The position numbers were made by a program, and so were the translations under genes. A stretch of DNA of 64,000 bases from an uncultured bacterium. GTDB lineage: Bacteria; Joyebacterota; Joyebacteria; Joyebacterales; Joyebacteraceae. The DNA is taken from positions 13,534 through 77,533 of the forward strand of contig CAZFRO010000011.1 of the NCBI GenBank assembly GCA_964521425.1, in the 5' to 3' direction. Under the pieces are notes generated by a model, which saw nothing but the letters and a program-made list of their open reading frames with translations, ran no database searches and was not told where the DNA came from. Below, piece by piece: positions 10,834-42,920 of the stretch (position 1 is its first letter; each line of letters begins with the position of its first letter).

Positions 10834-11188
10834 TTCCTGCAGGCTGGGATTGGCTGGGCCAGAGAGTCACAGTGAACCTTCGTCAGTGTCGACGGGGTCA
10901 CTATATGGGCTCTCCGCTCGTCGTGGCAAGCGGAAACAGCCGGAGAGAGCGATCGTTGTAGTGAGCAAGACTCAGATTCGAGTGATACACGTGGCTCACG
11001 TTATCCAGCTTCACGCCTCATGGCACAATCTATGCAACCTAGCTGGAACGAGAGAGGCTATTCGAGTGCATTGTAACAGTGCGTTCGAGGGGGATGCAGT
11101 CTTCAAGACAGAGATAGGATTGAGGCTGCCAACGGCAGAGCGCCGGGCGGGCATTGTTGCGCCGGTCGGCTCCAGGAGGGAAGCACAG

Positions 11189-11650
11189 ATGAGGAGAGGG
11201 CATTTCGTTTTGAGGACGGTCGCCGTAGCGGCGTTCGTTGTCATGATCGCGACCGGTTGCAGCATGATAGGGCCGGAGTCCGCGTGGGATGGCAACAACG
11301 GAACGGTTACAGGAACGGTCAACAATCGCATGGGCACGCCGATCGAGGCGATGACGGTCCAGATGTGGGCCGAAGTCGGAAGCGACGCTCGCGAGGTGAC
11401 CTACGAGGTCACAAGCGGCGCCGATGGTACGTTCGAACTGAGCGACATCGATCTGGGCGATCCGCACTCGTTCGCACAGGTATATGAGGTGTACGTCAAT
11501 CGCATGAAGGACACAGACGTATCGCTCAATGAGGAGTACGTGAGCTACTACGGCTCGGTGACCGTTACGAAGGACTCCGACTGCGTTGTGGCCGTTGTGC
11601 TTGATCTTGTGGACACCGATCCTGGTGATCCGGAGTCGATGTTCGAATAG
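11189..11650 (+). CDS. Small lipoprotein with a carboxypeptidase-regulatory-like (transthyretin-like) beta-sandwich domain.
   Basis: ATG at 11189 preceded by a GGAGGG RBS. Lipobox AAFVVMIATGC. GTVTGTVNNRMGTPIEAMTV resembles the CarbopepD_reg fold. The long ORF from 10580 is an upstream extension overlapping the antisense membrane gene. Confidence 0.65.
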   Translation: MRRGHFVLRTVAVAAFVVMIATGCSMIGPESAWDGNNGTVTGTVNNRMGTPIEAMTVQMWAEVGSDAREVTYEVTSGADGTFELSDIDLGDPHSFAQVYEVYVNRMKDTDVSLNEEYVSYYGSVTVTKDSDCVVAVVLDLVDTDPGDPESMFE

Positions 11651-12212: not shown

Positions 12213-12241
12213 TTGACAGCGCAATCGTAACATGATATCAT
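12213..12241 (+). promoter_or_regulatory. Sigma70-like promoter (TTGACA-N17-TATCAT) about 240 nt upstream of the giant peptidase gene.
   Basis: TTGACA at 12213-12218 and TATCAT at 12236-12241, inside a local AT-richer stretch with a catgatat direct repeat. Confidence 0.4.
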
Positions 12242-12478
12242 GATATGAGGCGTTCAGAGAGCCTGAACATGTCTGAATTGTAAGTCAGCAACAGGAGTCC
12301 GCATCTACTCAGACTGCTACTGCTTTTGAGCGCAAGCGACGATTCATCGACACTCATCTCCGGGGGGGACGAGTGAAGCGCAAAAGGGCAGTTGGTCGGA
12401 GTAGTGGCTGACTCCTGTTTTCTTTTGTCACAGAGTTGCGCCACCTATCTGTTGCATGGCTGCTAGTGGGGGAACCGA

Positions 12479-15400
12479 ATGCGATCCGCACTCCTTGTCA
12501 CGTTGCTTATCTTCGCGACAACCTTGGCTTCGGCCCCGGCTCTAGCCGGGCCCGTCGCGCACACCGAACTGACCGCTGACGACATTGTGTTGGGACAGAC
12601 GAGGGGATTCGAGACCCTGAGCTTCACCGGCGGAAGGCGGCTGGCGGGTGAGGGGGAACCGGACATCCCGGCTCGTATCATCCACTTCGTGATTCCGGAT
12701 GGGATGACCGTGGGAGATCTCGTGATCACTGAGGGCGATGAGATCGTTCTCAATGGCACGCATGCGATCCATCCAGTCCAGACCGATGTTCCGATCGGCG
12801 AGAGCGCGCCGTGGGTCGAGCCCGACGAACGCATCTACGGGAGTGATCTCTCCTATCCTCCGAAGCGAGCCGTCTACCTCGGGGATGGATTCCTCGGCGG
12901 GTATCGCATCGCTACCGTCGCACTCTATCCTGTGCAGCTGAGGCCGCTGTCAGGACAGCTCGTGCTGGCGCCCGAGCTGACCGTCGAACTTAGTCTGGAG
13001 CCGTCCGATAGAAGAGCGGCGGCCCGAGAGAGAATCACCGCCACTTCCGACAGGCTCTATCGTCGTCTCATCGAGACCATCGTAGACAATCCTGATGAGG
13101 TGACTGTCCTCAGGAATGTGGGGACCAACGTGATCACCGGTCCGCTGAGTGGAGGGTTTGCGCCTCGGTACTCACCGTCACTCGAGGGTAGCCCCGTCGA
13201 GTACGTCATCGTCACCACGGACGAACACGCGCCGTATTTCCAGGAACTCGCTGACTGGAAGACGCAGAAGGGTGTGCCGGCCGTTGTTCGAACCGTGTCA
13301 TGGATCAATGCGAATTACCCCGGGGGGTGCGACACCGCTGAGCGCATACGGTTCTTCCTCCAGGATGCATACGCTCTGTGGGGGACGACATATGTGCTGC
13401 TCGGAGGAGACACGGAGTTCGTTCCCGTGCGGTACGGAAGAACGGCCTACTACGGTGGTGAGAGTATCCCAACCGACCTCTACTACTCGGACCTGGACGG
13501 TAACTGGAACGCCGACGGAGATGCTCTGTTCGGTGAGGGCTACAGAACCGAAGAAGAACCGGGCGATGGTGTTGATCTCTATCCGGACGTTTTCGTCGGC
13601 CGCGCTCCGGTGAGCAATGTCGTAGACGTAGAGGCGTTCCTCGACAAGTGCGAAGCGTACAGGGAGAGTCCCGTACCGCACTTCGTCGATCGTAACCTGT
13701 ACTTGGGAGAGGTGCTCTTTCCATACGACTGGGAGAGTGGACCGTACAGCCTTGATGGCGCAGCCGACATCGTCGAGCCCGGGTTGCCGTCCGTCCCCGG
13801 TCAGATCTCCAATGTCGCACTGTACGCGAACTGGTCTTCGTTTCCAGAATCCTATCCTATCAGCGCCGCGGCGGCTGCGGAATCGCTGGAACAGGGGTAC
13901 AACCTAAATGTCCACGTCGGCCACGGGAACAAGGACATCATGAGGGTAGGTGTTAACAACTACATCACGATGTCCGGCATGTCGGGTCTCACGAACGGCA
14001 TCGACAAGGCTGGGTTCCTCTGGCTGCTCGACTGTACATCCTCGGCCATCGACTTCGATTGCATAGCGGAGCGCGCCATCATCAATCCTACTGGTGGGGG
14101 CTTCGCCACACTGGGGCCGACCCGGTATGCTTTCCCCACGACGTGCCGCGACTACTACTGGGACTGGTTGGACCTTCTGTATGTCTCCGGATGCCAGGAG
14201 ATCGGACCTCTCTTGGGGATGACGACCACGCTTCACGCGAGCTTCGCGGAATCAGGTCGCGACAACACCGACAGGTGGACGCAGTTTTCCATGCTTCTGC
14301 TGGGTGACCCCGAGATAGCCATGAGAACAGTGCGTCCGAGGAACCTCTCGGTGGCCTTCTCTGGCGCCATGCAGGTTGGGGAAGATGGGATGACGTTCAA
14401 CGTGACCGACCCCGGTCTCGTGGAGGGCGCGAAGGTCTGTGTCTCCTCTTCGTCCGGGGATGTCTACGCCTACGGAACAACGGATGGCGTGGGTGAGGTC
14501 CACATTGATTTCACCCCGACTGTGACCGGCGTGCTCCAGGTCACCGTCACGTGCCCCAACTACTACGTCTTCGAATCAGAGATCAATGTGGTCATCGCGG
14601 CCGGAGCCTACGTACATCTCGCGGACGTGACCGTGGACGATGACGACATCGGAGGAAGCTCCGGGAACGAGAACGACAGGCCGGAGCCGGACGAGACCCT
14701 GGAACTTGACATCAGCGTCCGGAACGGCGGAATCGCAACGGCTTCCGCGGTCTCAGCCTTCATCTCATCAATCGATCCGTACATTGTGATCGAGGCGGAC
14801 TCGGTGTTCGTCGGTGATGTGGAACCCGGTGTGACTGCAGAGTTCCCCGCCGCCTTCCGGATCTTTGTCACATCCGACTGTCCGAACAACCACGACGCGG
14901 AGTTGACCCTGGACTTCTCGGAGGCAGGGAGAGCCACGTGGCAGGAGGAGTTCGAGGTTCGCGTCTATGCACCGGAGCTCGTTCACCTCTACACGCAGCT
15001 CGATGATTCAGTCGGTGGTGATGGAGACGGCATCCCCGAGTTGGGGGAGACCGTGACTCTCCTCCTCGACGTCTGGAATGAAGGCAACGGAGACGCGGAC
15101 GGGATCACCGGCGTGCTCAGCTACTCCGAGCCGGCCTGGGTCGGTTTCACGGACAGCACCGACGTCTGGGGAGATATCTCAGCCGGTACGGCTGCTCCCG
15201 GCCTCGATGGTATTGAATTCGAGATCCTCGGCCATCTCTCCGAGTACTTCGAGCTTCTGCTTGCCGACGAGTATGGCAAGACATGGACACAGCGCCTTGA
15301 TATCCACAGGCCTGATCCGCCAGACACGATCTTTGGCGATGTCGTGGGCACGACCATCAGTCTCAGCTGGGAGCAGAACATCGAGCCCGATCTCAGAGGA

Positions 15401-17212
15401 TACGATGTGTGGAGGAGCCAGAACCAGTCCGGCCCCTACGACGTAGCCAACACGGCGATCGTCGAGGGCATGTCGTATTTCGCTGATAGTGGATTGGATG
15501 AGAACACGCGCTACTACTACTATGTTGTCGCTGTGGACTCATCAGGGAACGTGAGCACCGCTTCCCCCGTGCTCAGTATCAGCACCAATCCGCCAAGTCT
15601 GTCGGGATGGCCGCTTGCCACGTCGGGGGGCATGTACTCGAGTGTGGCAGTCGCCGATCTCGACGGCGACGGTTCGAAGGAGATACTGGTCGCCTCCGAG
15701 CAGCTCTATGCGTGGCACGCGGACGGCACGGAGGTCCGGGATGGAGACGGCGATCCAAGGACAGGCGGCATCTTCGCAATCGATGGTCAGGGCGGATACC
15801 GCTGCACGCCCGCAGTCGGCGAGGTGGACGGCGACAGCGGTGTGGAGATCGTCGCGGCAGCCTGGGCCGACGTGGGGAGTGGCGATCCTGAGCACGAGGT
15901 GTTCGTGTGGAACGGGGAAGACGGCAGCGTGGTCTCGGGGTGGCCGGTTACGACCGGGAGGTTCTGCTGGGCCAGTCCGGCCCTCGCCGATCTCGACCAC
16001 GATGGGCGAAGCGAGATCATAATCCCCTGCGCTGACGGCAAGCTCTACTGCTGGAGCTACAACGGATCTGAGTTCATAGACGGAGATAGCGACCCGCTCA
16101 CAGTCGGCGTTTTCGCCGATCTTGGGAATCCCTATATCTACGCTTCCCCCGTGATCGCGGACATAGACGGTGACGGGGAACTGGAGATACTGCAGCCGGC
16201 CGCTACAGAGAGCGTCTACTGTTTCAATGCGGATGGCTCCAGAGTGCCGGGTTGGCCGATATCAATTGGGCTCAAGGCATACAGCTCACCGGCTGTCGGA
16301 GACGTTGATGGGGATGGCGATCTGGAGATCGCGATCGCCTCCCACACGTGGGATGTCTCGCTGTTCGATCATGAGGGGATCCCGCTCGCCGGATGGCCGA
16401 AGTCGATGGCGAACAATGGAGATTTCCCACCCTCACCTGTTCTTGCGGACCTGACCGGAGACGGATTCCTCGAACTGGTTCAGGTGGGCTCTGACGGCGA
16501 GATTATGATATGGGACTACCAGGGCAGCGCGATGAGCGGATGGCCGCAGTTGCTGGGCGGGAACGTGAAATCGAGTCCGGCGATCGCCAATGTCGATGCC
16601 GATCCGGATCTCGAGCTGATCGTAGGCAGTGATTCTGGAAAGCTGTTTGCCTTCGATCTTGATGGCTCGGTTCTGGACGGCTGGCCGATCCAGACGGGCG
16701 CCTACATCTACGGGTCTCCGACCGTGGACGATGTCGACGGAGACGGTGATGTCGAGGTCGTGGTTGGCGGAATGGACACCAAGGTGTATGTCTGGGACTG
16801 TGAGGGCGCTTACGACGGTGGCGCCAGTGTAGAGTGGGGGTGTTTCCTTCACGATCTGTGGCGGACGCAGCTCTATGGTTTTGAGATTCCTGTCGGGGTC
16901 AGCAACGATGATGTCGTAGATCTCGGTGGACGACTTCTGGAACAGAACGTCCCGAATCCATTCAACCCGCTTACGACGATCGAGTTCATTGTGCCGACCA
17001 CTGAGGGCAGCGCGCCCGTGACTCTCTCCATCTATACGGTTGGGGGAGCGGTTGTCCGCACGCTTCTGGATTCGCACGTGGAGCCCGGACGGCACGCGGC
17101 AGTCTGGGACGGCCGTGATGGACACGGCAGGCCGGTCGCATCGGGTGTCTACTTCTACAGGATTGCCGTCGGCGACAGGAGCGAGTCGAAGAAGATGCTG
17201 CTCATCAAGTAG
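12479..17212 (+). CDS. Giant secreted gingipain-family (peptidase C25, clan CD) cysteine peptidase with an FN3 domain, an 8-blade FG-GAP beta-propeller and a type IX secretion C-terminal sorting domain.
   Basis: Signal peptide. His-Gly...Ala-Cys catalytic dyad context NVHVGHGN (His at 13922-13924) and LWLLDCTSS (Cys at 14033-14035). FN3-like segment (RGYDVWRSQ...YYYYVVAVDSSGN). Eight repeats of the ADLDGDG-x-EIL type. C-terminal NVPNPFNPLTTIEF...IYTVGGAVVRTL...WDGRDGHGRPVASGVYFYRI matches the Por/T9SS CTD. Confidence 0.85.
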   Translation: MRSALLVTLLIFATTLASAPALAGPVAHTELTADDIVLGQTRGFETLSFTGGRRLAGEGEPDIPARIIHFVIPDGMTVGDLVITEGDEIVLNGTHAIHPVQTDVPIGESAPWVEPDERIYGSDLSYPPKRAVYLGDGFLGGYRIATVALYPVQLRPLSGQLVLAPELTVELSLEPSDRRAAARERITATSDRLYRRLIETIVDNPDEVTVLRNVGTNVITGPLSGGFAPRYSPSLEGSPVEYVIVTTDEHAPYFQELADWKTQKGVPAVVRTVSWINANYPGGCDTAERIRFFLQDAYALWGTTYVLLGGDTEFVPVRYGRTAYYGGESIPTDLYYSDLDGNWNADGDALFGEGYRTEEEPGDGVDLYPDVFVGRAPVSNVVDVEAFLDKCEAYRESPVPHFVDRNLYLGEVLFPYDWESGPYSLDGAADIVEPGLPSVPGQISNVALYANWSSFPESYPISAAAAAESLEQGYNLNVHVGHGNKDIMRVGVNNYITMSGMSGLTNGIDKAGFLWLLDCTSSAIDFDCIAERAIINPTGGGFATLGPTRYAFPTTCRDYYWDWLDLLYVSGCQEIGPLLGMTTTLHASFAESGRDNTDRWTQFSMLLLGDPEIAMRTVRPRNLSVAFSGAMQVGEDGMTFNVTDPGLVEGAKVCVSSSSGDVYAYGTTDGVGEVHIDFTPTVTGVLQVTVTCPNYYVFESEINVVIAAGAYVHLADVTVDDDDIGGSSGNENDRPEPDETLELDISVRNGGIATASAVSAFISSIDPYIVIEADSVFVGDVEPGVTAEFPAAFRIFVTSDCPNNHDAELTLDFSEAGRATWQEEFEVRVYAPELVHLYTQLDDSVGGDGDGIPELGETVTLLLDVWNEGNGDADGITGVLSYSEPAWVGFTDSTDVWGDISAGTAAPGLDGIEFEILGHLSEYFELLLADEYGKTWTQRLDIHRPDPPDTIFGDVVGTTISLSWEQNIEPDLRGYDVWRSQNQSGPYDVANTAIVEGMSYFADSGLDENTRYYYYVVAVDSSGNVSTASPVLSISTNPPSLSGWPLATSGGMYSSVAVADLDGDGSKEILVASEQLYAWHADGTEVRDGDGDPRTGGIFAIDGQGGYRCTPAVGEVDGDSGVEIVAAAWADVGSGDPEHEVFVWNGEDGSVVSGWPVTTGRFCWASPALADLDHDGRSEIIIPCADGKLYCWSYNGSEFIDGDSDPLTVGVFADLGNPYIYASPVIADIDGDGELEILQPAATESVYCFNADGSRVPGWPISIGLKAYSSPAVGDVDGDGDLEIAIASHTWDVSLFDHEGIPLAGWPKSMANNGDFPPSPVLADLTGDGFLELVQVGSDGEIMIWDYQGSAMSGWPQLLGGNVKSSPAIANVDADPDLELIVGSDSGKLFAFDLDGSVLDGWPIQTGAYIYGSPTVDDVDGDGDVEVVVGGMDTKVYVWDCEGAYDGGASVEWGCFLHDLWRTQLYGFEIPVGVSNDDVVDLGGRLLEQNVPNPFNPLTTIEFIVPTTEGSAPVTLSIYTVGGAVVRTLLDSHVEPGRHAAVWDGRDGHGRPVASGVYFYRIAVGDRSESKKMLLIK

Positions 17213-17283: not shown

Positions 17284-17314
17284 GAAGCGCCCGGGAAATA
17301 AGCCCGGGCGCTTC
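17284..17314 (+). terminator. Rho-independent-type terminator hairpin downstream of the peptidase gene.
   Basis: gaagcgcccggg-aaataa-cccgggcgcttc, a perfect 12-bp stem. Confidence 0.55.
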
Positions 17315-17431: not shown

Positions 17432-17461
17432 TTGACAGCGTCAGGGGCGGACGGCTAGTAT
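17432..17461 (+). promoter_or_regulatory. Sigma70-like promoter of the mraZ/dcw operon (TTGACA-N18-TAGTAT).
   Basis: TTGACA at 17432-17437 and TAGTAT at 17456-17461, about 55 nt upstream of the mraZ ATG. Confidence 0.5.
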
Positions 17462-17985: not shown

Positions 17986-18348
17986 ATGACCATCCTCCCG
18001 AGGGAGACGGAGAGGGCGACCGTACTCCACATGGCCGGGTCCATTGGAGGAGCGCGCGACCTCGGCCGGCTGCATCGACACCTTGCCGGCCTTCTGGCCT
18101 TGCGTAAGACGCGAATCGTCCTCGATTTCTCCGACGTGGATCACGTGGACTACCAGGACGCGGGAGAACTCGCTAAGGAGTTCGAATTCGTCCATTCGTA
18201 CCGAGGTGAATTGATGGTAGCCGGTCTGAGCCCATACGTGAGGAACATCTTGCTCCTCGCAGGACTCCACGGCTTCCTCGAGATGAGCACATACGGCGCG
18301 AACACATACATGGGGCCGGCATCTACCCACGATCTTCGAGCGAGCTGA
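17986..18348 (+). CDS. STAS-domain protein (SpoIIAA-like anti-sigma-factor antagonist fold) lacking the phosphorylatable Ser.
   Basis: VLDFSDVDHVDYQDAGELAKEFEFVHSYRGELMVAGLSPYVRNILLLAGLHGFLE aligns with the STAS consensus (vlDlsgvtfiDSsGlg...GgelvlvglspqvrrvleltGl). The DSSG Ser position is DYQDAG here. Lies between mraZ and rsmH. Confidence 0.6.
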   Translation: MTILPRETERATVLHMAGSIGGARDLGRLHRHLAGLLALRKTRIVLDFSDVDHVDYQDAGELAKEFEFVHSYRGELMVAGLSPYVRNILLLAGLHGFLEMSTYGANTYMGPASTHDLRAS

Positions 18349-39011: not shown

Positions 39012-42000
39012 TTAGTCCGGCTCGATGCTCTTTCGGATGGCCGCGAGCAGGTTGTTGAACTCGTACGGCTTCTGGAGGAACTGGTACCCGCGGTCGCGGA
39101 TCTCTGTCCACTGTGACTTCTGGCCCGTGTAGCCGCTGCTGAGAAGGACGTTGATGTCCGGGGAGCGAGTCAGAAGCTCGTCCACAAGCGTGACCCCGCT
39201 CTTGCCGGGCAGAACAACGTCACTGAAGATGAGATCGAATCTCCCTTCCTCCTGGTCGAACAGCTCAAGCGCCTGCTCAGCACTCTCGGCGGCAACGATG
39301 TCGTAGCCGCTGTCCTTGAGCGCGCCCACTGCGAAGTCCCTTACCAGAGGCTCGTCCTCCACGAGCAGGATGCGTTCTCCGCGTCCCGACTCCACGATCT
39401 TAAGCGAAGCCTCATCCGACGTATCATCGGGCCCGGCATCCGTCGTCGGGATGTGAATGAGGAAAGTCGTGCCGTGGCCGACCTCCGTCTGAACCTGGAT
39501 CCATCCCTCGTGCTGGCGGATGATGCCGTAGGCGCCGGCAAGGCCAAGACCCGTGCCCTCGCCGCGTCCCTTGGTTGTGAAGAAGGGCTCGAAGATCCTG
39601 TCCACGACCTCGGGGGGTATTCCGGATCCGGAGTCCGTAACCGAGATGCAGATGTACTCCCCGGATGAGCAATCACCCTTGGACGGACAATCGTTCTCGC
39701 CCACCTGGATACACTTGGCGCCCACGGTCAGACTTCCTCCGTGCGGCATCGCATCGCGCGCGTTGACGACCATGTTGATGAGCACCTGTTCGATCTGCCC
39801 GCCGTCCACCTTGATACAGGGGAGACCGTCGGCGATATCCGTATGAAGCGCGATGTCCTCTCCGATGAGCCGCCTCATCATCTTCTCCAGGTCGGCGATG
39901 ATGCCGCCTGCGTCCAGGATCTTGGACTCGAGCGGCTGCCTGCGGCTGAACGCAAGAAGCTGGCCCGTGAGGTTGGCTGCTCGGTCGGCGCCCTTCTTGA
40001 CCTCGGTGATGTACGATCTGAGTGGGTTATCGTCCTCCATCTTCGCAAGTGCGAGATCCGAGTACCCGGTGATGGCTGTGAGGAGATTGTTGAAATCGTG
40101 AGCGACACCTCCCGCGAGCCGTCCGACGGCCTCCATCTTCTGCGCCTGCAAGAGCTGCCCCTGAGCCTCGGAGAGTTCCGCCAGGCTCTTCTCGAGTTCA
40201 CCGAGGGCATTGACCTTCCGCCACGATGCCGCTATCTGGTTCGCGAGCGCCGTGAGGATCGCCACATCGGCCCGTTTGAGATCGGGAGACAGCATCACCA
40301 GCGCGCCGAAGACCTCTCCCTCGGTGACAAGTGGGGCTGCGACGAGATGCTCGATCTTACCACGGTGACATGCATCCGGCGGGGACGTGGCTGCATCTCT
40401 GAATGAGTCTCCGACGACGCTTCGTCCATCCTCGACAAAGATGCTGCTCCCGTCGAGAAGCGTGGCCCTCGAGTCTGCCGGAATGAGCTCCGTGAGCGAT
40501 TGCGCCTGGGCCGAGTCGTCCAGCATCAGGGCTCTGGTGCAGGTGTCCAGATCCAGGAGCGAGGCGGCAGCCGTGTCGAGAACCTGCTTGGGTGTGAGAG
40601 CGCGAGCCATGGCAAGCGCGGCCGAGTTCACGGCGTGGAGCAGCTTCTCAGCTCGTTTCCGGTCAGTGATGTCTCTCAGAATCCAGACGTATGAGTGCGG
40701 TTTGCCATCGGGATCTGTCATCGGTGAGACAGTCATCTCACAGTCGAATGTTGTTCCGTCCCGGTGTCTATTGACGTGGGTTCCGTGCCAGATGCCACCG
40801 GAGGTCACGGCCTTGATCATCGCCGCGTGGATCTTGGCAGCAGAAGGCTCCGCGCTGAGTGTGTCGGGAACCAGACCAAGAAGCTCATCGTGATCGTAGC
40901 CGTACGTCAGCTCGGCTGCACTGTTGACGTAGGTGATCCTGAACTCGAGGTCCGTCACCATGATGCCATCGGAGACCTGGGTCGGGATCGAACTGAGGAA
41001 GCGCAGCTGATCCTCGGCCCGCCGGCGTTCGATCGACGTTCCGATCTGTCCGGACACGAACTTGAGCATTGCCAGGTCGTCTTCATCGAACTCGTCCGGA
41101 TTGTCATAGCTCTGGACCACGATCGCGCCGATGACCTCGCCTCGGGCGTGGAGCGGAACACCAAGCCAGATATCGCTGGGCGTGCCGATCATGTCGACCT
41201 CTCCGCGTGCCACCATTGCGTCGCCCGTCTCCTGGTCGAGCAGGAGGGCCCTGTCGTTGTGTATGACGTTGGCCGTGAGACTTCTCCCGGCCGGGAACGA
41301 TCCGTAGATACCCTGGTCGTGCTGATCCAGGAAGTAGGGAAGGGCAATGGTGTCGGTGTCGCTGTCGTAGAGCGCTATGAAGAAGTTATCGGTGTTCAGG
41401 ACCTTCCCCAGCTCCGTGTGGATCGTCTCGTAGAGCTCATCCATGTCCTCAGTAGTGTGCGCGGCGCTCGCGACCACGTAGGCGACCTGCTGCATCGCCT
41501 CGGCGCGCCTCATCTCGGTGATATCCATGCCTGAACTCAAGGTCCCCGTGATGGTTCCATCTGCGCCGTATATCATCGTGTTGTGCCAGGCCACCGTCCG
41601 TGTGTTGCCCTTGGCCGTCACAATTTCGTTCTCGTAGTGCGCCACGGGCACGATATCGCCCGCCATGAGCAGTTTGAACGCCCCTCTTACCTCCTCGCGG
41701 GAGTCCTCCGGCACGAACCAGTCGAACCAGTTCTGCCCGATCACCTCGTCCTCGCTCGACTCCAGCATCTCGCAGCCGCGTGTGTTGATCATCGTGACCA
41801 GGCCATCGGGTCCCAGGGCCACGAATGCCGCCTCAGCGAGGTCCAGGTAGCCCTGGGCGCGATCGCGGGCGTGCTTCATCTTCTCGACGGCCTCGAATCG
41901 GAGAAGGGCCGCCGCCAGCATCTCCGCCGCCGCTGCTATCGGTCCCATATCCTCCGGTGGAGGCGTCTTCATGGCGGAGGCCTGCTCGAACGAGAGAAAA

Positions 42001-42920
42001 CCGATCACTTCAGCCGCGGAGTGAATGGGCACCATCAGCGCCGAGCGCACCCCCAGCATGTCGAGTGACCTCTGGTCGGTCGCAGCCTCTTCCGGGAGGT
42101 CTCTGACATCCTCGATGACGGCGTTTCTCCCGGCGAGGATCTCGGACGTGCACCAGGGAAGCAGAGCGATGCTGAGATCCTGCTTGCTCCCGTCGGTTGC
42201 GGGTGAGTGATGGGGATTCCACTCGTGGGTCTTGTCTATTCTGTCCTCCGCCCGGAATCTGTAGATGCCGGCGCGGTCGACGGAGAGGGCGGTCGCCAGG
42301 TTTCTGAGTATCTCTCCGATATCGACGGAGACATCCCGTACGAGAGCGCGGGAGAAATCCGCCACGGCGCGGTCGAGCGCCCGTCTGTGTTCGAGGGCAT
42401 GTGCAGCGTCCGAATGCGCTCGGAGATCGGTTGCCGTCAGAGCTATGGCACACGGTCTGCCATCAGGGCTGGTCAGCACTCTTGCGTTCACGAGCATCGA
42501 GAAGAGCGAACCTGATCTGTGGACGTGTTGCACCACGAGTGCGCTGACACTGCCCCCTGCGGAGAGCGAGTCCAGCGCGTTCCGGGTCTGAGGCGGTTGG
42601 AACTCCGCTCGCAGCATTGAGATGCTCTTCCCTGCCAGTTCGCCGGGTTCGTACCCGTGCGCCTCGGCGAAGTAGTGGTTAATGTAGGTGATCGTGCCAT
42701 GTGTGTCGGTGGCCACGAAGCCGTGGTTGGTCTGTTCGCTCATGGCCTCCATGGTCTCTGCGTTCAGCCCGATGCGTGAGCGCTGTCCGACGAAGTAGCT
42801 GAGCATGAGCCCGGTGCCGAGCGTGAAAGCAGTGAGAGTGAGGCGAAAGACCCAGCCAAGCGGGGTGATTCCAGTGATGACGGCCTGCATAAACGTGATG
42901 TCGTAGAAGGCAACGAGCAA
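39012..42920 (-). CDS. Multi-sensor hybrid histidine kinase: N-terminal TM region, multiple PAS and GAF domains, HisKA, HATPase_c and a C-terminal receiver domain.
   Basis: HisKA H-box ([22 protein letters not shown]), G-boxes (GTGLGLA), and receiver ([29 protein letters not shown]...[14 protein letters not shown]). Several PAS/GAF-like blocks with coiled-coil linkers. Confidence 0.9.

What the first reader, a model, noticed from the sequence alone, without database searches (positions are those of the whole stretch)
12479..17212. 1577-aa gingipain-like C25 peptidase fused to an FN3 domain, an 8-bladed FG-GAP propeller and a T9SS sorting signal
The catalytic His (GHG) and Cys (LLDCTSS) of clan CD are intact, so this is probably an active secreted or surface-anchored cysteine peptidase. 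The very large FG-GAP (integrin-alpha-like) propeller following the protease is unusual for gingipains, which normally carry haemagglutinin/adhesin domains; it suggests a different substrate-targeting or adhesion module. The C-terminal Por-type domain implies export by a type IX secretion system and probable covalent attachment to the cell surface. This is also a useful lineage marker.
Basis: partly seen in the sequence, partly recalled or inferred. Interest (0 to 1): 0.6.

Follow-up and report, generated by a model that had tools for sequence, protein, structure and literature searches.

The report
Gingipain-like secreted protease with propeller
This gene from an uncultured Eisenbacteria bacterium encodes a large secreted cysteine protease of the gingipain family, with a calcium-type eight-bladed propeller and a C-terminal export tag. 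The reading of the sequence is correct, but the design is the standard one in this phylum, not a rarity.

Summary
The order is: Sec signal peptide, gingipain-type prodomain, C25 catalytic domain, three Ig-like beta-sandwiches, FN3, an eight-bladed FG-GAP propeller, and a C-terminal beta-sandwich of the T9SS type-A/FlgD-Ig kind.

- **Catalytic domain.** It scores 174 bits against Pfam. His482 and Cys519 are invariant in 105/105 full-length homologues. The AlphaFold model matches RgpB at TM 0.84.
- **Gingipain-like, not PorU-like.** The NCBIfam PorU sortase model gives 56 bits against a cutoff of 420.
- **Not rare.** An identical protein is already in public collections. Over 100 same-architecture homologues come from Candidatus Eisenbacteria, and 2373 cluster representatives match the N-terminal 976 residues at E<=1e-30.
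- **Genomic position.** Orthologues keep a fixed position just upstream of mraZ and the dcw cluster.
- **Export tag.** It scores just under NCBI's cutoff here (21.4 vs 23). The same tag passes the cutoff on paralogues and on a GH57 enzyme in the same genome.
- **Not shown.** No T9SS machinery gene lies in the roughly 84 kb I could read, so T9SS export and surface attachment remain inferred.

Verdict: a well-supported but ordinary annotation of an uncharacterised family. A conserved structured RNA leader upstream was noticed in passing.

The parts
12213..12241 (+). Sigma-70-like promoter TTGACA-17 nt-TATCAT with an extended-10 TG, about 240 nt upstream of the start codon
   Evidence: The consensus scan gives 11/12 matches. 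Both hexamers are conserved in five orthologous loci. Function is inferred.
12243..12431 (+). Conserved structured 5' leader, or a separate small RNA. It is a long imperfect hairpin (about 12291-12417) followed by the U-run TGTTTTCTTTT.
   Evidence: MFE -75.6 kcal/mol, z = -4.56. The consensus fold of the 412-column upstream alignment, which includes this leader, has 95 pairs, 7 of them with compensatory changes. A 21-nt invariant core is present in the close orthologues. There is no Rfam match. Its link to the peptidase gene is inferred.
12468..12473 (+). Shine-Dalgarno-like GGGGGA, 5 nt before the ATG
   Evidence: Read from the sequence. Invariant in the orthologue alignment.
12479..17212 (+). 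Complete coding sequence, 1577 aa plus stop
   Evidence: An identical protein, P0001, is in public collections.
12479..12547 (+). Sec signal peptide, residues 1-23 (MRSALLVTLLIFATTLASAPALA | GP)
   Evidence: Read from the sequence: a basic n-region, a hydrophobic core and A-L-A at positions -3 to -1. No predictor was run.
12548..13093 (+). Gingipain-type prodomain, residues about 24-205
   Evidence: Pfam Propeptide_C25, 32.6 bits against a cutoff of 22. Family profile hits the Kgp prodomain 5mun at E 2.8e-14 and the RgpB prodomain 4ief_A at 3.6e-8. Foldseek to 4ief_C gives TM 0.68.
13202..14320 (+). C25 catalytic domain, residues 242-614, with His482 (13922-13924) and Cys519 (14033-14035)
   Evidence: Pfam E 5.9e-51. 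Foldseek to RgpB 1cvr gives E 3.6e-26 and TM 0.84. His and Cys are invariant in 105/105 homologues.
14348..14593 (+). First Ig-like beta-sandwich, residues about 624-705. It corresponds to the IgSF domain that follows the catalytic domain in RgpB and Kgp.
   Evidence: AlphaFold strands. Alignments to 1cvr and 4ief_B run through this region.
14612..15298 (+). Two further beta-sandwich domains, residues about 712-842 and 845-940, each with the motif DD..G.GDG.P..GE
   Evidence: AlphaFold model with pLDDT about 90. CARDB hits (PF07705) occur in some homologues. There is a weak TIGR03900 match at residues 734-875.
15320..15583 (+). Fibronectin type III domain, residues about 948-1035
   Evidence: Pfam fn3 20.4 bits, below the cutoff of 25. 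phmmer to 3mpc gives E 2.4e-5. The family profile hits titin and RPTP FN3 domains at E 1e-11 to 1e-8. The model shows a beta-sandwich.
15593..16840 (+). Eight-bladed FG-GAP beta-propeller, residues about 1039-1454, with eight D-rich (DxDxDG-type) loops
   Evidence: FG-GAP_3 76 bits and FG-GAP 53 bits. Eight groups of four strands in a model with pLDDT 93. Foldseek hits eight-bladed propellers: BamB at TM 0.78, Rsa4 and Bap1 6mlt. The profile hits PLL/PHL lectin propellers at about E 1e-13.
16937..17209 (+). C-terminal sorting-type beta-sandwich, residues about 1487-1577. It starts with PNPFNP and ends with GVYFYRI...SKKMLLIK.
   Evidence: FlgD_ig 30.7 bits (cutoff 27). TIGR04183 21.4 bits (cutoff 23). 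The same domain ends unrelated proteins in this genome and phylum.
17284..17314 (+). Perfect 12-bp GC-rich hairpin (GAAGCGCCCGGG / CCCGGGCGCTTC), 72 nt after the stop codon, with no T-run. A likely end of the transcription unit.
   Evidence: Read from the sequence. The next promoter-like site, at 17432-17461, precedes mraZ. Function is inferred.

Best explanation
The gene encodes a secreted, latent cysteine endopeptidase of the gingipain family (MEROPS C25) from a Candidatus Eisenbacteria bacterium.

Proposed course of events:
1. The Sec signal takes the protein to the periplasm.
2. The C-terminal beta-sandwich is recognised as an outer-membrane export tag of the T9SS type-A kind, and the protein is moved to the cell surface or the medium.
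3. The N-terminal prodomain keeps the enzyme inactive until it is cut off. Activation then frees the His482/Cys519 dyad.
4. The stalk (three Ig-like domains and one FN3) holds out an eight-bladed propeller of the calcium-binding type. This propeller serves as the binding module for a polymer or surface, either glycan or protein. It takes the place of the haemagglutinin/adhesin domains of Porphyromonas gingipains.

Shown here: the ORF, every domain, the conserved dyad, the gingipain-like fold of the prodomain and catalytic domain, eight blades, and the tag shared with unrelated enzymes.

Inferred: enzymatic activity, latency and its release, the export route, and what the propeller binds. Substrate specificity is unknown.
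For: - **Domains.** Pfam and NCBIfam domain scores.
- **Dyad.** His482 and Cys519 align to RgpB His211 and Cys244. They are invariant in 105 homologues down to 35% identity.
- **Structure models.** pLDDT is 91.7 and 93.4.
- **Fold matches for the catalytic part.** RgpB E 3.6e-26 with TM 0.84-0.86, Kgp E 2.3e-25, RgpB prodomain TM 0.68.
- **Family profile against solved structures.** RgpB 1.5e-22, Kgp prodomain 2.8e-14, PLL/PHL lectin propellers about 1e-13, FN3 domains, FlgD Ig domain 1e-6.
- **The C-terminal domain is a shared tag.** It also ends a roughly 1150-aa C25 protein in 9 loci and a DUF7901/GEVED protein in 2 loci. It ends a GH57 enzyme a few kb past the window in the same genome (TIGR04183 30.9 bits; family-tag HMM E 3.8e-23). 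It ends a metallophosphatase in a closed Eiseniibacteriota genome.
- **Paralogues pass TIGR04183.** They score 24.4 and 32.2 bits.
- **Tag features match published CTD descriptions.** These are a seven-strand sandwich, 67-88 residues, a conserved glycine before strand 4, and lysine in the last strand (PMC11285876). Here the tag is about 90 residues, G1523 is invariant, and the protein ends in KKMLLIK.
- **Stand-alone transcription unit.** Own promoter-like site and a downstream hairpin.
Against: - TIGR04183 is 1.6 bits below its curated cutoff in this protein.
- No T9SS core gene was seen in the 64-kb window, in 20 kb of flanking contig, or in any related locus. These cover only a small part of any genome.
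- Eisenbacteria are not among the non-Bacteroidota phyla listed as possible T9SS holders in PMC11285876. NCBI taxonomy does not place the phylum in the FCB group.
- The residue that sets S1 specificity could not be assigned. The position aligned to RgpB Asp163 (D430) is not conserved in the family.
- No activity, localisation or expression data exist.
Confidence: 0.7

Rival explanations
1. The protein is the Eisenbacterial counterpart of PorU. PorU is the C25-family signal peptidase/sortase that removes the C-terminal tags of T9SS cargo. On this reading the protein is not a digestive or surface protease.
For: PorU is also a C25 peptidase of more than 1100 aa that keeps its own C-terminal tag. 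The family profile hits PorU 6za2 at E 1.6e-16, and Foldseek gives E 1.8e-12. The orthologue has a tightly conserved length (about 1570-1580 aa) and a fixed genomic position across the phylum, as expected of a housekeeping component. No protein reaching the NF033707 cutoff was seen in the loci scanned.
Against: The NCBIfam PorU model NF033707 scores 56 bits against a cutoff of 420, and its best stretch is only the tag. RgpB and Kgp match far better than PorU by profile (1.5e-22) and by fold (E 1e-26, TM 0.84). The protein carries a gingipain-type N-terminal prodomain. Genomes hold two or three such proteins, which is not expected of a single sortase.
Confidence: 0.07
2. The protein is a secreted C25 peptidase, but the C-terminal Ig-like domain is not a T9SS signal. 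It would be a FlgD-type Ig domain used for binding or folding, with export by another route such as type II secretion or vesicles. Alternatively the protein stays periplasmic.
For: Pfam's FlgD_ig model passes its cutoff while TIGR04183 does not. The profile also hits true FlgD structures at E 1e-6. No T9SS machinery gene was found in any DNA read. No literature supports T9SS in this phylum.
Against: The domain is strictly C-terminal on at least six different architectures. These are three C25 layouts, GH57, DUF7901/GEVED and a metallophosphatase. That pattern marks a sorting tag, not a functional module. TIGR04183 passes its cutoff on four of them. NCBI names one homologue 'T9SS type A sorting domain-containing protein'. 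The same tag occurs on Ignavibacteriaceae proteins, and Ignavibacteriota is among the phyla suggested to hold T9SS.
Confidence: 0.18
3. The protein is a catalytically dead adhesin. On this reading the C25 fold is retained only as a scaffold, and the propeller is the working part.
For: NCBIfam holds a Bacteroidota family with an inactivated M6-like protease head, FG-GAP repeats and a type-A tag (NF052323). The propeller region here matches it at 104 bits.
Against: His482 and Cys519 are invariant in 105/105 homologues. So are the neighbouring Gly481, Glu531, Gly539, Gly546 and Pro553. A prodomain is retained, which makes sense only for an enzyme that must be kept latent.
Confidence: 0.03

Closest known systems
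Gingipains RgpB and Kgp of Porphyromonas gingivalis (MEROPS family C25; PDB 1cvr, 4ief, 4rbm, 5mun)
   Same: The order signal peptide, prodomain, catalytic domain, IgSF domain and C-terminal export tag is shared. The His/Cys dyad is at the aligned positions. Fold match is TM 0.84-0.86 for the catalytic plus Ig part and 0.68 for the prodomain.
   Different: Identity is only about 17%. There are no haemagglutinin/adhesin (cleaved-adhesin) domains. Instead there are two extra beta-sandwiches, an FN3 domain and an eight-bladed FG-GAP propeller. The S1 specificity residue is not assignable. The host is an uncultured environmental phylum, not a Bacteroidota pathogen.
PorU, the T9SS C-terminal signal peptidase/sortase (NCBIfam NF033707; PDB 6za2)
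   Same: C25 catalytic fold, large multidomain size and a C-terminal tag of the same fold.
   Different: It scores 56 bits against a cutoff of 420. The fold and profile matches are clearly weaker than to gingipains. This protein has the gingipain-type prodomain and a propeller.
T9SS-dependent M6-like inactivated metalloprotease (NCBIfam NF052323)
   Same: The overall logic is shared: a peptidase-type head, then FG-GAP repeats, then a type-A sorting tag. The back half matches at 104 bits in 5 stretches.
   Different: The score is far below the cutoff of 600. The head is an M6 metalloprotease fold that is inactivated. Here the head is a C25 cysteine peptidase with an intact dyad.
Bacterial eight-bladed and FG-GAP/lectin propellers: Vibrio cholerae Bap1 (6mlt), Photorhabdus PLL/PHL lectins (5c9o, 5mxe), rhamnogalacturonan lyase YesX (2zuy)
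   Same: Repeats of about 47-55 residues with D-rich loops. The fold or profile matches are Bap1 E 8.5e-10, PHL 9e-14 and YesX 4e-4. These proteins bind sugars or matrix polymers.
   Different: None of them is fused to a peptidase. Whether the propeller here binds sugar or protein is untested.
Paralogues in Eisenbacteria: the C25-propeller protein at about 50% identity and the C25 protein of about 1150 aa beside it
   Same: Prodomain, catalytic domain, first Ig domain and tag are shared. Against the 1150-aa protein, identity is 32% over 722 aa, and 47% in the tag.
   Different: The 1150-aa form has no propeller. The paralogue pair sits in another locus in tandem. The window's gene belongs to the orthologue group next to mraZ.

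Membership tests
Peptidase family C25 (gingipain family, clan CD) | Match to the Peptidase_C25 profile above the curated cutoff | tested here: met
   PF01364 scores 174.3 bits against a cutoff of 23, covering profile positions 1-373 of 374.
Peptidase family C25 (gingipain family, clan CD) | Catalytic His and Cys at the positions of RgpB His211 and Cys244 | tested here: met
   His482 and Cys519 align to them. Both are invariant in 105/105 homologues.
Peptidase family C25 (gingipain family, clan CD) | Caspase-like alpha/beta fold followed by an Ig-like domain, as in the RgpB and Kgp crystal structures | tested here: met
   Model pLDDT is 91.7. Foldseek gives 1cvr E 3.6e-26 with TM 0.84, 4ief TM 0.86 and 4rbm TM 0.76.
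Peptidase family C25 (gingipain family, clan CD) | N-terminal inhibitory prodomain (zymogen form) | tested here: met
   PF08126 scores 32.6 bits against a cutoff of 22. The profile hits 5mun at 2.8e-14 and 4ief_A at 3.6e-8. Foldseek to 4ief_C gives TM 0.68. That it inhibits is inferred.
Peptidase family C25 (gingipain family, clan CD) | Peptidase activity with defined P1 specificity (Arg or Lys in gingipains) | not testable with these tools
   The residue aligned to RgpB Asp163 (D430) is variable in the family: D44, H30, gap 30. No coordinates were available to inspect the pocket.
T9SS type A C-terminal sorting domain (TIGR04183 / PF18962) | Match to the sorting-domain profile above the curated cutoff | tested here: inconclusive
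   TIGR04183 scores 21.4 bits against a cutoff of 23 in this protein. The homologous tags of the paralogues score 32.2 and 24.4 bits. The GH57 protein of the same genome scores 30.9 bits, and a DUF7901 protein scores 23.2 bits. PF13860 FlgD_ig passes here at 30.7 against 27.
T9SS type A C-terminal sorting domain (TIGR04183 / PF18962) | Strictly C-terminal beta-sandwich of about 70-90 residues, shared by otherwise unrelated secreted proteins of the same organism | tested here: met
   The family-tag HMM hits the last 80-90 residues of five other architectures, including the GH57 protein of the same genome at E 3.8e-23. A sixth, the metallophosphatase, carries Pfam FlgD_ig. The model shows a sandwich at residues about 1499-1575.
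T9SS type A C-terminal sorting domain (TIGR04183 / PF18962) | T9SS core machinery (SprA/Sov, PorV, PorU, GldK/L/M/N or PorK/L/M/N) in the same genome | not testable with these tools
   None was found in the window or in about 20 kb of flanks.
T9SS type A C-terminal sorting domain (TIGR04183 / PF18962) | Removal of the tag and attachment of the cargo to anionic LPS | not testable with these tools
   This needs proteomics. It is not universal even among Bacteroidota cargo (established knowledge).
PorU sortase (NF033707) | Match to the equivalog-domain model above the cutoff | tested here: not met
   It scores 56.1 bits against a cutoff of 420, and the best stretch is the tag only.
FG-GAP / VCBS beta-propeller | Repeats matching the FG-GAP profiles and forming a closed propeller | tested here: met
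   PF13517 scores 76.1 bits (cutoff 26.9) in 7 stretches, and PF01839 scores 53.1 bits (cutoff 22.1). There are eight D-rich loops. The model has eight four-stranded blades at pLDDT 93.
FG-GAP / VCBS beta-propeller | Calcium binding by the DxDxDG loops | not testable with these tools
   The motif is canonical in blades 1, 4, 5 and 8 and degenerate in 2, 3, 6 and 7. Binding is inferred from integrin-type repeats.
Fibronectin type III domain | Match to PF00041 above the cutoff, or an equivalent fold | tested here: inconclusive
   The single sequence scores 20.4 bits against a cutoff of 25. The family profile hits many solved FN3 domains at E 1e-11 to 1e-6. The model is a beta-sandwich. Homologues carry PF00041 hits.

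The most novel reading that the evidence does not exclude
This nearly universal, length-conserved and position-conserved C25-propeller protein might not be a feeding protease. It could be the processing enzyme of the phylum's tagged secretome. In that role it would do the job of PorU: cutting the C-terminal tags and anchoring cargo. Its build would be gingipain-like, with a propeller docking it to the cell-surface polymer. This would also place a working T9SS-type pathway in a phylum where none has been reported.
Probability: 0.07. Interest if true: 0.6.

Novelty: new variant of a known kind. Interest (0 to 1): 0.3.

Why it matters
Eisenbacteria have no cultured member and their physiology is guessed from genomes.

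- **Lifestyle.** A conserved latent surface or secreted cysteine protease sits among other enzymes that carry the same C-terminal tag: GH57, a metallophosphatase and further C25 proteins. This points to a lifestyle built on extracellular breakdown of polymers.
- **Secretion.** The tags point to a T9SS-type secretome outside Bacteroidota.
- **Enzymology.** The family offers a gingipain catalytic core joined to a lectin-like, integrin-like propeller in place of haemagglutinin domains. It comprises 2373 cluster representatives at E<=1e-30. This is a natural experiment in how C25 peptidases are aimed at their targets.

None of this overturns current views. The value lies in annotation and in choosing a target for biochemical work.

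Tried and rejected
- **Chance ORF in GC-rich DNA.** Rejected: profile hits at E 1e-51 and an identical database protein.
- **PorU identity.** Tested with NF033707 and by fold and profile ranking. Not met.
- **T9SS machinery.** I scanned all sizeable ORFs of the window and about 20 kb beyond each end. I also scanned the paralogue locus and a locus of a closed Eiseniibacteriota genome. Nothing was found, but the coverage is too small to mean absence. The two proteins of about 400 aa upstream of the tandem C25 genes were checked as possible PorV. They are secreted tandem-repeat proteins with a faint MAM-like hit (E 0.0075, below the cutoff), not barrels.
- **Literature.** Five of the nine paper searches looked for Eisenbacteria with T9SS or for the C25+FG-GAP combination. 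None found anything specific.
- **S1 specificity and third catalytic residue.** The pairwise alignment suggests E419 and D430. Neither is conserved in the family, so no call was made.
- **Prodomain cleavage site.** R185 is invariant. R230-Y231 is conserved in 76/105 homologues and resembles the RgpB Arg-Tyr junction as I recall it. This is only a lead.
- **Known RNA families.** An Rfam search of the upstream region found only the two tRNAs.
Full report
**Observation.** The window holds one long ORF at 12479..17212 on the + strand: ATG start, 1577 aa. An in-frame stop lies 12 nt upstream and a GGGGGA run sits 5 nt before the ATG. The N-terminus MRSALLVTLLIFATTLASAPALA|GP reads as a Sec signal peptide. 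This is read directly from the sequence; no predictor was run.

Pfam gives the following scores:
- Propeptide_C25 at residues 41-184, 32.6 bits against a cutoff of 22.
- Peptidase_C25 at residues 242-614, 174 bits, E 5.9e-51.
- FG-GAP_3 at 76 bits, and FG-GAP at 53 bits.
- FlgD_ig at residues 1507-1562, 30.7 bits against a cutoff of 27.
- fn3 at residues 948-1031, 20.4 bits, below the cutoff of 25.

NCBIfam gives TIGR04183 (T9SS type A sorting domain) at 21.4 bits against a cutoff of 23. It gives the PorU sortase model at 56 bits against 420. It also gives the 'T9SS-dependent M6-like inactivated metalloprotease' model at 104 bits against 600, matching over the FG-GAP repeats.

**Catalytic part.** phmmer against solved structures finds RgpB. 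The alignment places His482 on RgpB His211 and Cys519 on Cys244. I aligned 105 full-length homologues with identity down to 35%. Both residues are invariant in that alignment, together with a set of neighbouring glycines, prolines and Glu531.

An AlphaFold model of residues 25-1000, built on this alignment, has mean pLDDT 91.7. Foldseek against the PDB ranks:
- RgpB: 1cvr E 3.6e-26 with TM 0.84, and 4ief TM 0.86.
- Kgp: 4rbm E 2.3e-25.
- PorU: 6za2, only E 1.8e-12.
- The RgpB and Kgp prodomains as separate matches, TM 0.68 and 0.59.

The family profile against PDB sequences agrees: RgpB 1.5e-22, PorU 1.6e-16, Kgp prodomain 2.8e-14.

The protein is therefore a gingipain-type zymogen and not a PorU-type sortase. 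The residue aligned to the RgpB specificity residue Asp163 is not conserved in the family, so I make no claim about which bond it cuts.

**Middle and C-terminal parts.** The model shows three beta-sandwich domains after the catalytic domain. The first corresponds to the Ig-like domain of RgpB and Kgp.

The model of residues 940-1577 has pLDDT 93.4. It shows an FN3-like sandwich, then eight groups of four strands, then a final sandwich. Eight D-rich loops of the FG-GAP kind can be read at residues 1064, 1119, 1175, 1228, 1279, 1326, 1375 and 1418. Foldseek returns eight-bladed propellers: BamB at TM 0.78, Rsa4 and Vibrio Bap1. The profile hits Photorhabdus PLL/PHL lectin propellers near E 1e-13. 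It hits integrin alpha-V only weakly, and it hits FN3 domains of titin and receptor phosphatases.

**The C-terminal tag.** It starts with PNPFNP, has an invariant glycine (G1523) between strands, then GVYFYRI, and ends in SKKMLLIK. It is about 90 residues long. These features fit the published description of T9SS C-terminal domains. That description is a seven-strand sandwich of 67-88 residues, with a functional glycine before strand 4 and a conserved lysine in the last strand, as in the KLIKK peptidases (PMC11285876).

An HMM built from the family's tag finds the same domain at the very end of other proteins:
- A C25 protein of about 1150 aa, in nine loci.
- A DUF7901/GEVED protein, in two loci.
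- A GH57 enzyme that lies a few kb past the window end in the same genome, E 3.8e-23.

Pfam annotation also puts a FlgD_ig domain on a metallophosphatase in a closed Eiseniibacteriota genome. TIGR04183 passes its cutoff on the GH57 protein (30.9 bits), on both paralogous C25 proteins (32.2 and 24.4) and on the DUF7901 protein (23.2). A strictly terminal domain shared by unrelated enzymes is what a sorting tag looks like.

The machinery could not be shown. No T9SS core gene is in the window. None is in the 20 kb of contig beyond it, nor in the other loci read. The library has no paper linking Eisenbacteria with T9SS. [quoted passage not shown]

**Who has it.** The protein is identical to an unnamed entry seen on 12-21 public contigs. 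The best 120 hits carry the same domains, whole or cut short. Most are 1565-1710 aa. Where named, they are 'C25 family cysteine peptidase', 'VCBS repeat-containing protein' or 'T9SS type A sorting domain-containing protein', from Candidatus Eisenbacteria and in one case from Krumholzibacteriota. Twenty-five genome loci are all from Eisenbacteria or unnamed MAGs.

An exhaustive search with residues 25-1000 finds 2373 cluster representatives at E<=1e-30. Of the best 150, 90 are longer than 1400 aa. At least 61 of those 90 have both FG-GAP motifs and the terminal tag. The layout is therefore common in uncultured bacteria, although I found no paper that describes it.

**Context.** Upstream lie an RND efflux operon, rsgA, a nucleotidyl transferase, a PDZ protein, a Yip1 protein, a small lipoprotein, tRNA-Leu and tRNA-Ala. 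Downstream lie mraZ, a STAS-domain gene, rsmH, ftsL, ftsI and the mur genes. Orthologues of 52-94% identity keep exactly this position in nine loci.

A second paralogue group at about 50% identity sits elsewhere, directly after the 1150-aa C25 gene. That 1150-aa protein shares the prodomain, catalytic domain, first Ig domain and tag, but has no propeller.

The gene looks monocistronic. It has a strong promoter-like site at 12213-12241 and a perfect 12-bp hairpin at 17284-17314, and a separate promoter-like site precedes mraZ.

**Mechanism proposed.**
- Shown: all domains, the conserved dyad, the gingipain-like prodomain and core, eight blades, and the shared terminal tag.
- Inferred from knowledge of gingipains and T9SS cargo: Sec export, recognition of the tag at the outer membrane, removal of the prodomain to activate the enzyme, and use of the propeller as a calcium-dependent binding module in place of the haemagglutinin/adhesin domains.
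- Not supported: covalent anchoring.

**Rivals.**
- A PorU-like processing role is unlikely, given the failed model cutoff, the better gingipain match and the paralogy.
- A non-T9SS role of the terminal domain remains possible until the genome is checked.
- A dead-enzyme adhesin is unlikely, given the invariant dyad and the retained prodomain.

**Verdict.** It is a variant of the gingipain design. Interest is modest.

Noticed in passing
window 12213-12431: Between tRNA-Ala and the peptidase gene lies a promoter-like site followed by a conserved RNA element of about 190 nt. The element is a long imperfect hairpin (about 12291-12417) ending in a U-run. Its fold has z = -4.56, and it has a 21-nt invariant core in five orthologous loci. 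It has no Rfam match. It could be an attenuating leader of the peptidase gene or a separate small RNA. Only weak traces appear upstream of more distant orthologues (L009, L013, L015).
   Followed up: partly
window 17986-18348: A 120-aa gene for a STAS-domain protein (anti-sigma-antagonist type) sits between mraZ and rsmH at the head of the dcw cluster. It is conserved there in every Eisenbacteria locus that has this context. mraZ and rsmH are normally adjacent.
   Followed up: partly
L032 14966-18124 (same genome, about 4 kb past the window end): A 1052-aa glycoside hydrolase family 57 protein ends in the same C-terminal tag. TIGR04183 scores 30.9 bits, above its cutoff.
   Followed up: yes
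L031 6180-9584 and 10001-14788 (also L010, L012, L016, L019-L022, L025): There is a conserved tandem of two C25 genes. The first is a form of about 1150 aa without a propeller. The second is the propeller paralogue at about 50% identity. Two tandem secreted proteins of about 400 aa precede them, both ending in SWGxIKxxYR.
   Followed up: partly
L004 15149-17377 and L014 14912-17347: In two more distant genomes, a gene for a 743-812 aa DUF7901/GEVED protein with the same C-terminal tag is inserted between the peptidase orthologue and mraZ.
   Followed up: partly
L034 19482-21437 (closed genome CP070702.1): A 651-aa metallophosphatase of the purple-acid-phosphatase type carries the FlgD_ig-type domain, 4 kb from a 1700-aa member of the peptidase family.
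   Followed up: no
window 39012-42920 (- strand): A 1302-aa hybrid sensor kinase with GAF and three PAS domains, HisKA, HATPase and a receiver domain. No link to the finding was seen.
   Followed up: no
window 11066-11650: A small lipoprotein-like ORF (lipobox IATGC) with a weak CarboxypepD_reg-like domain lies just upstream of the tRNAs. It is conserved in that position in orthologous loci at 31-77% identity.
   Followed up: partly
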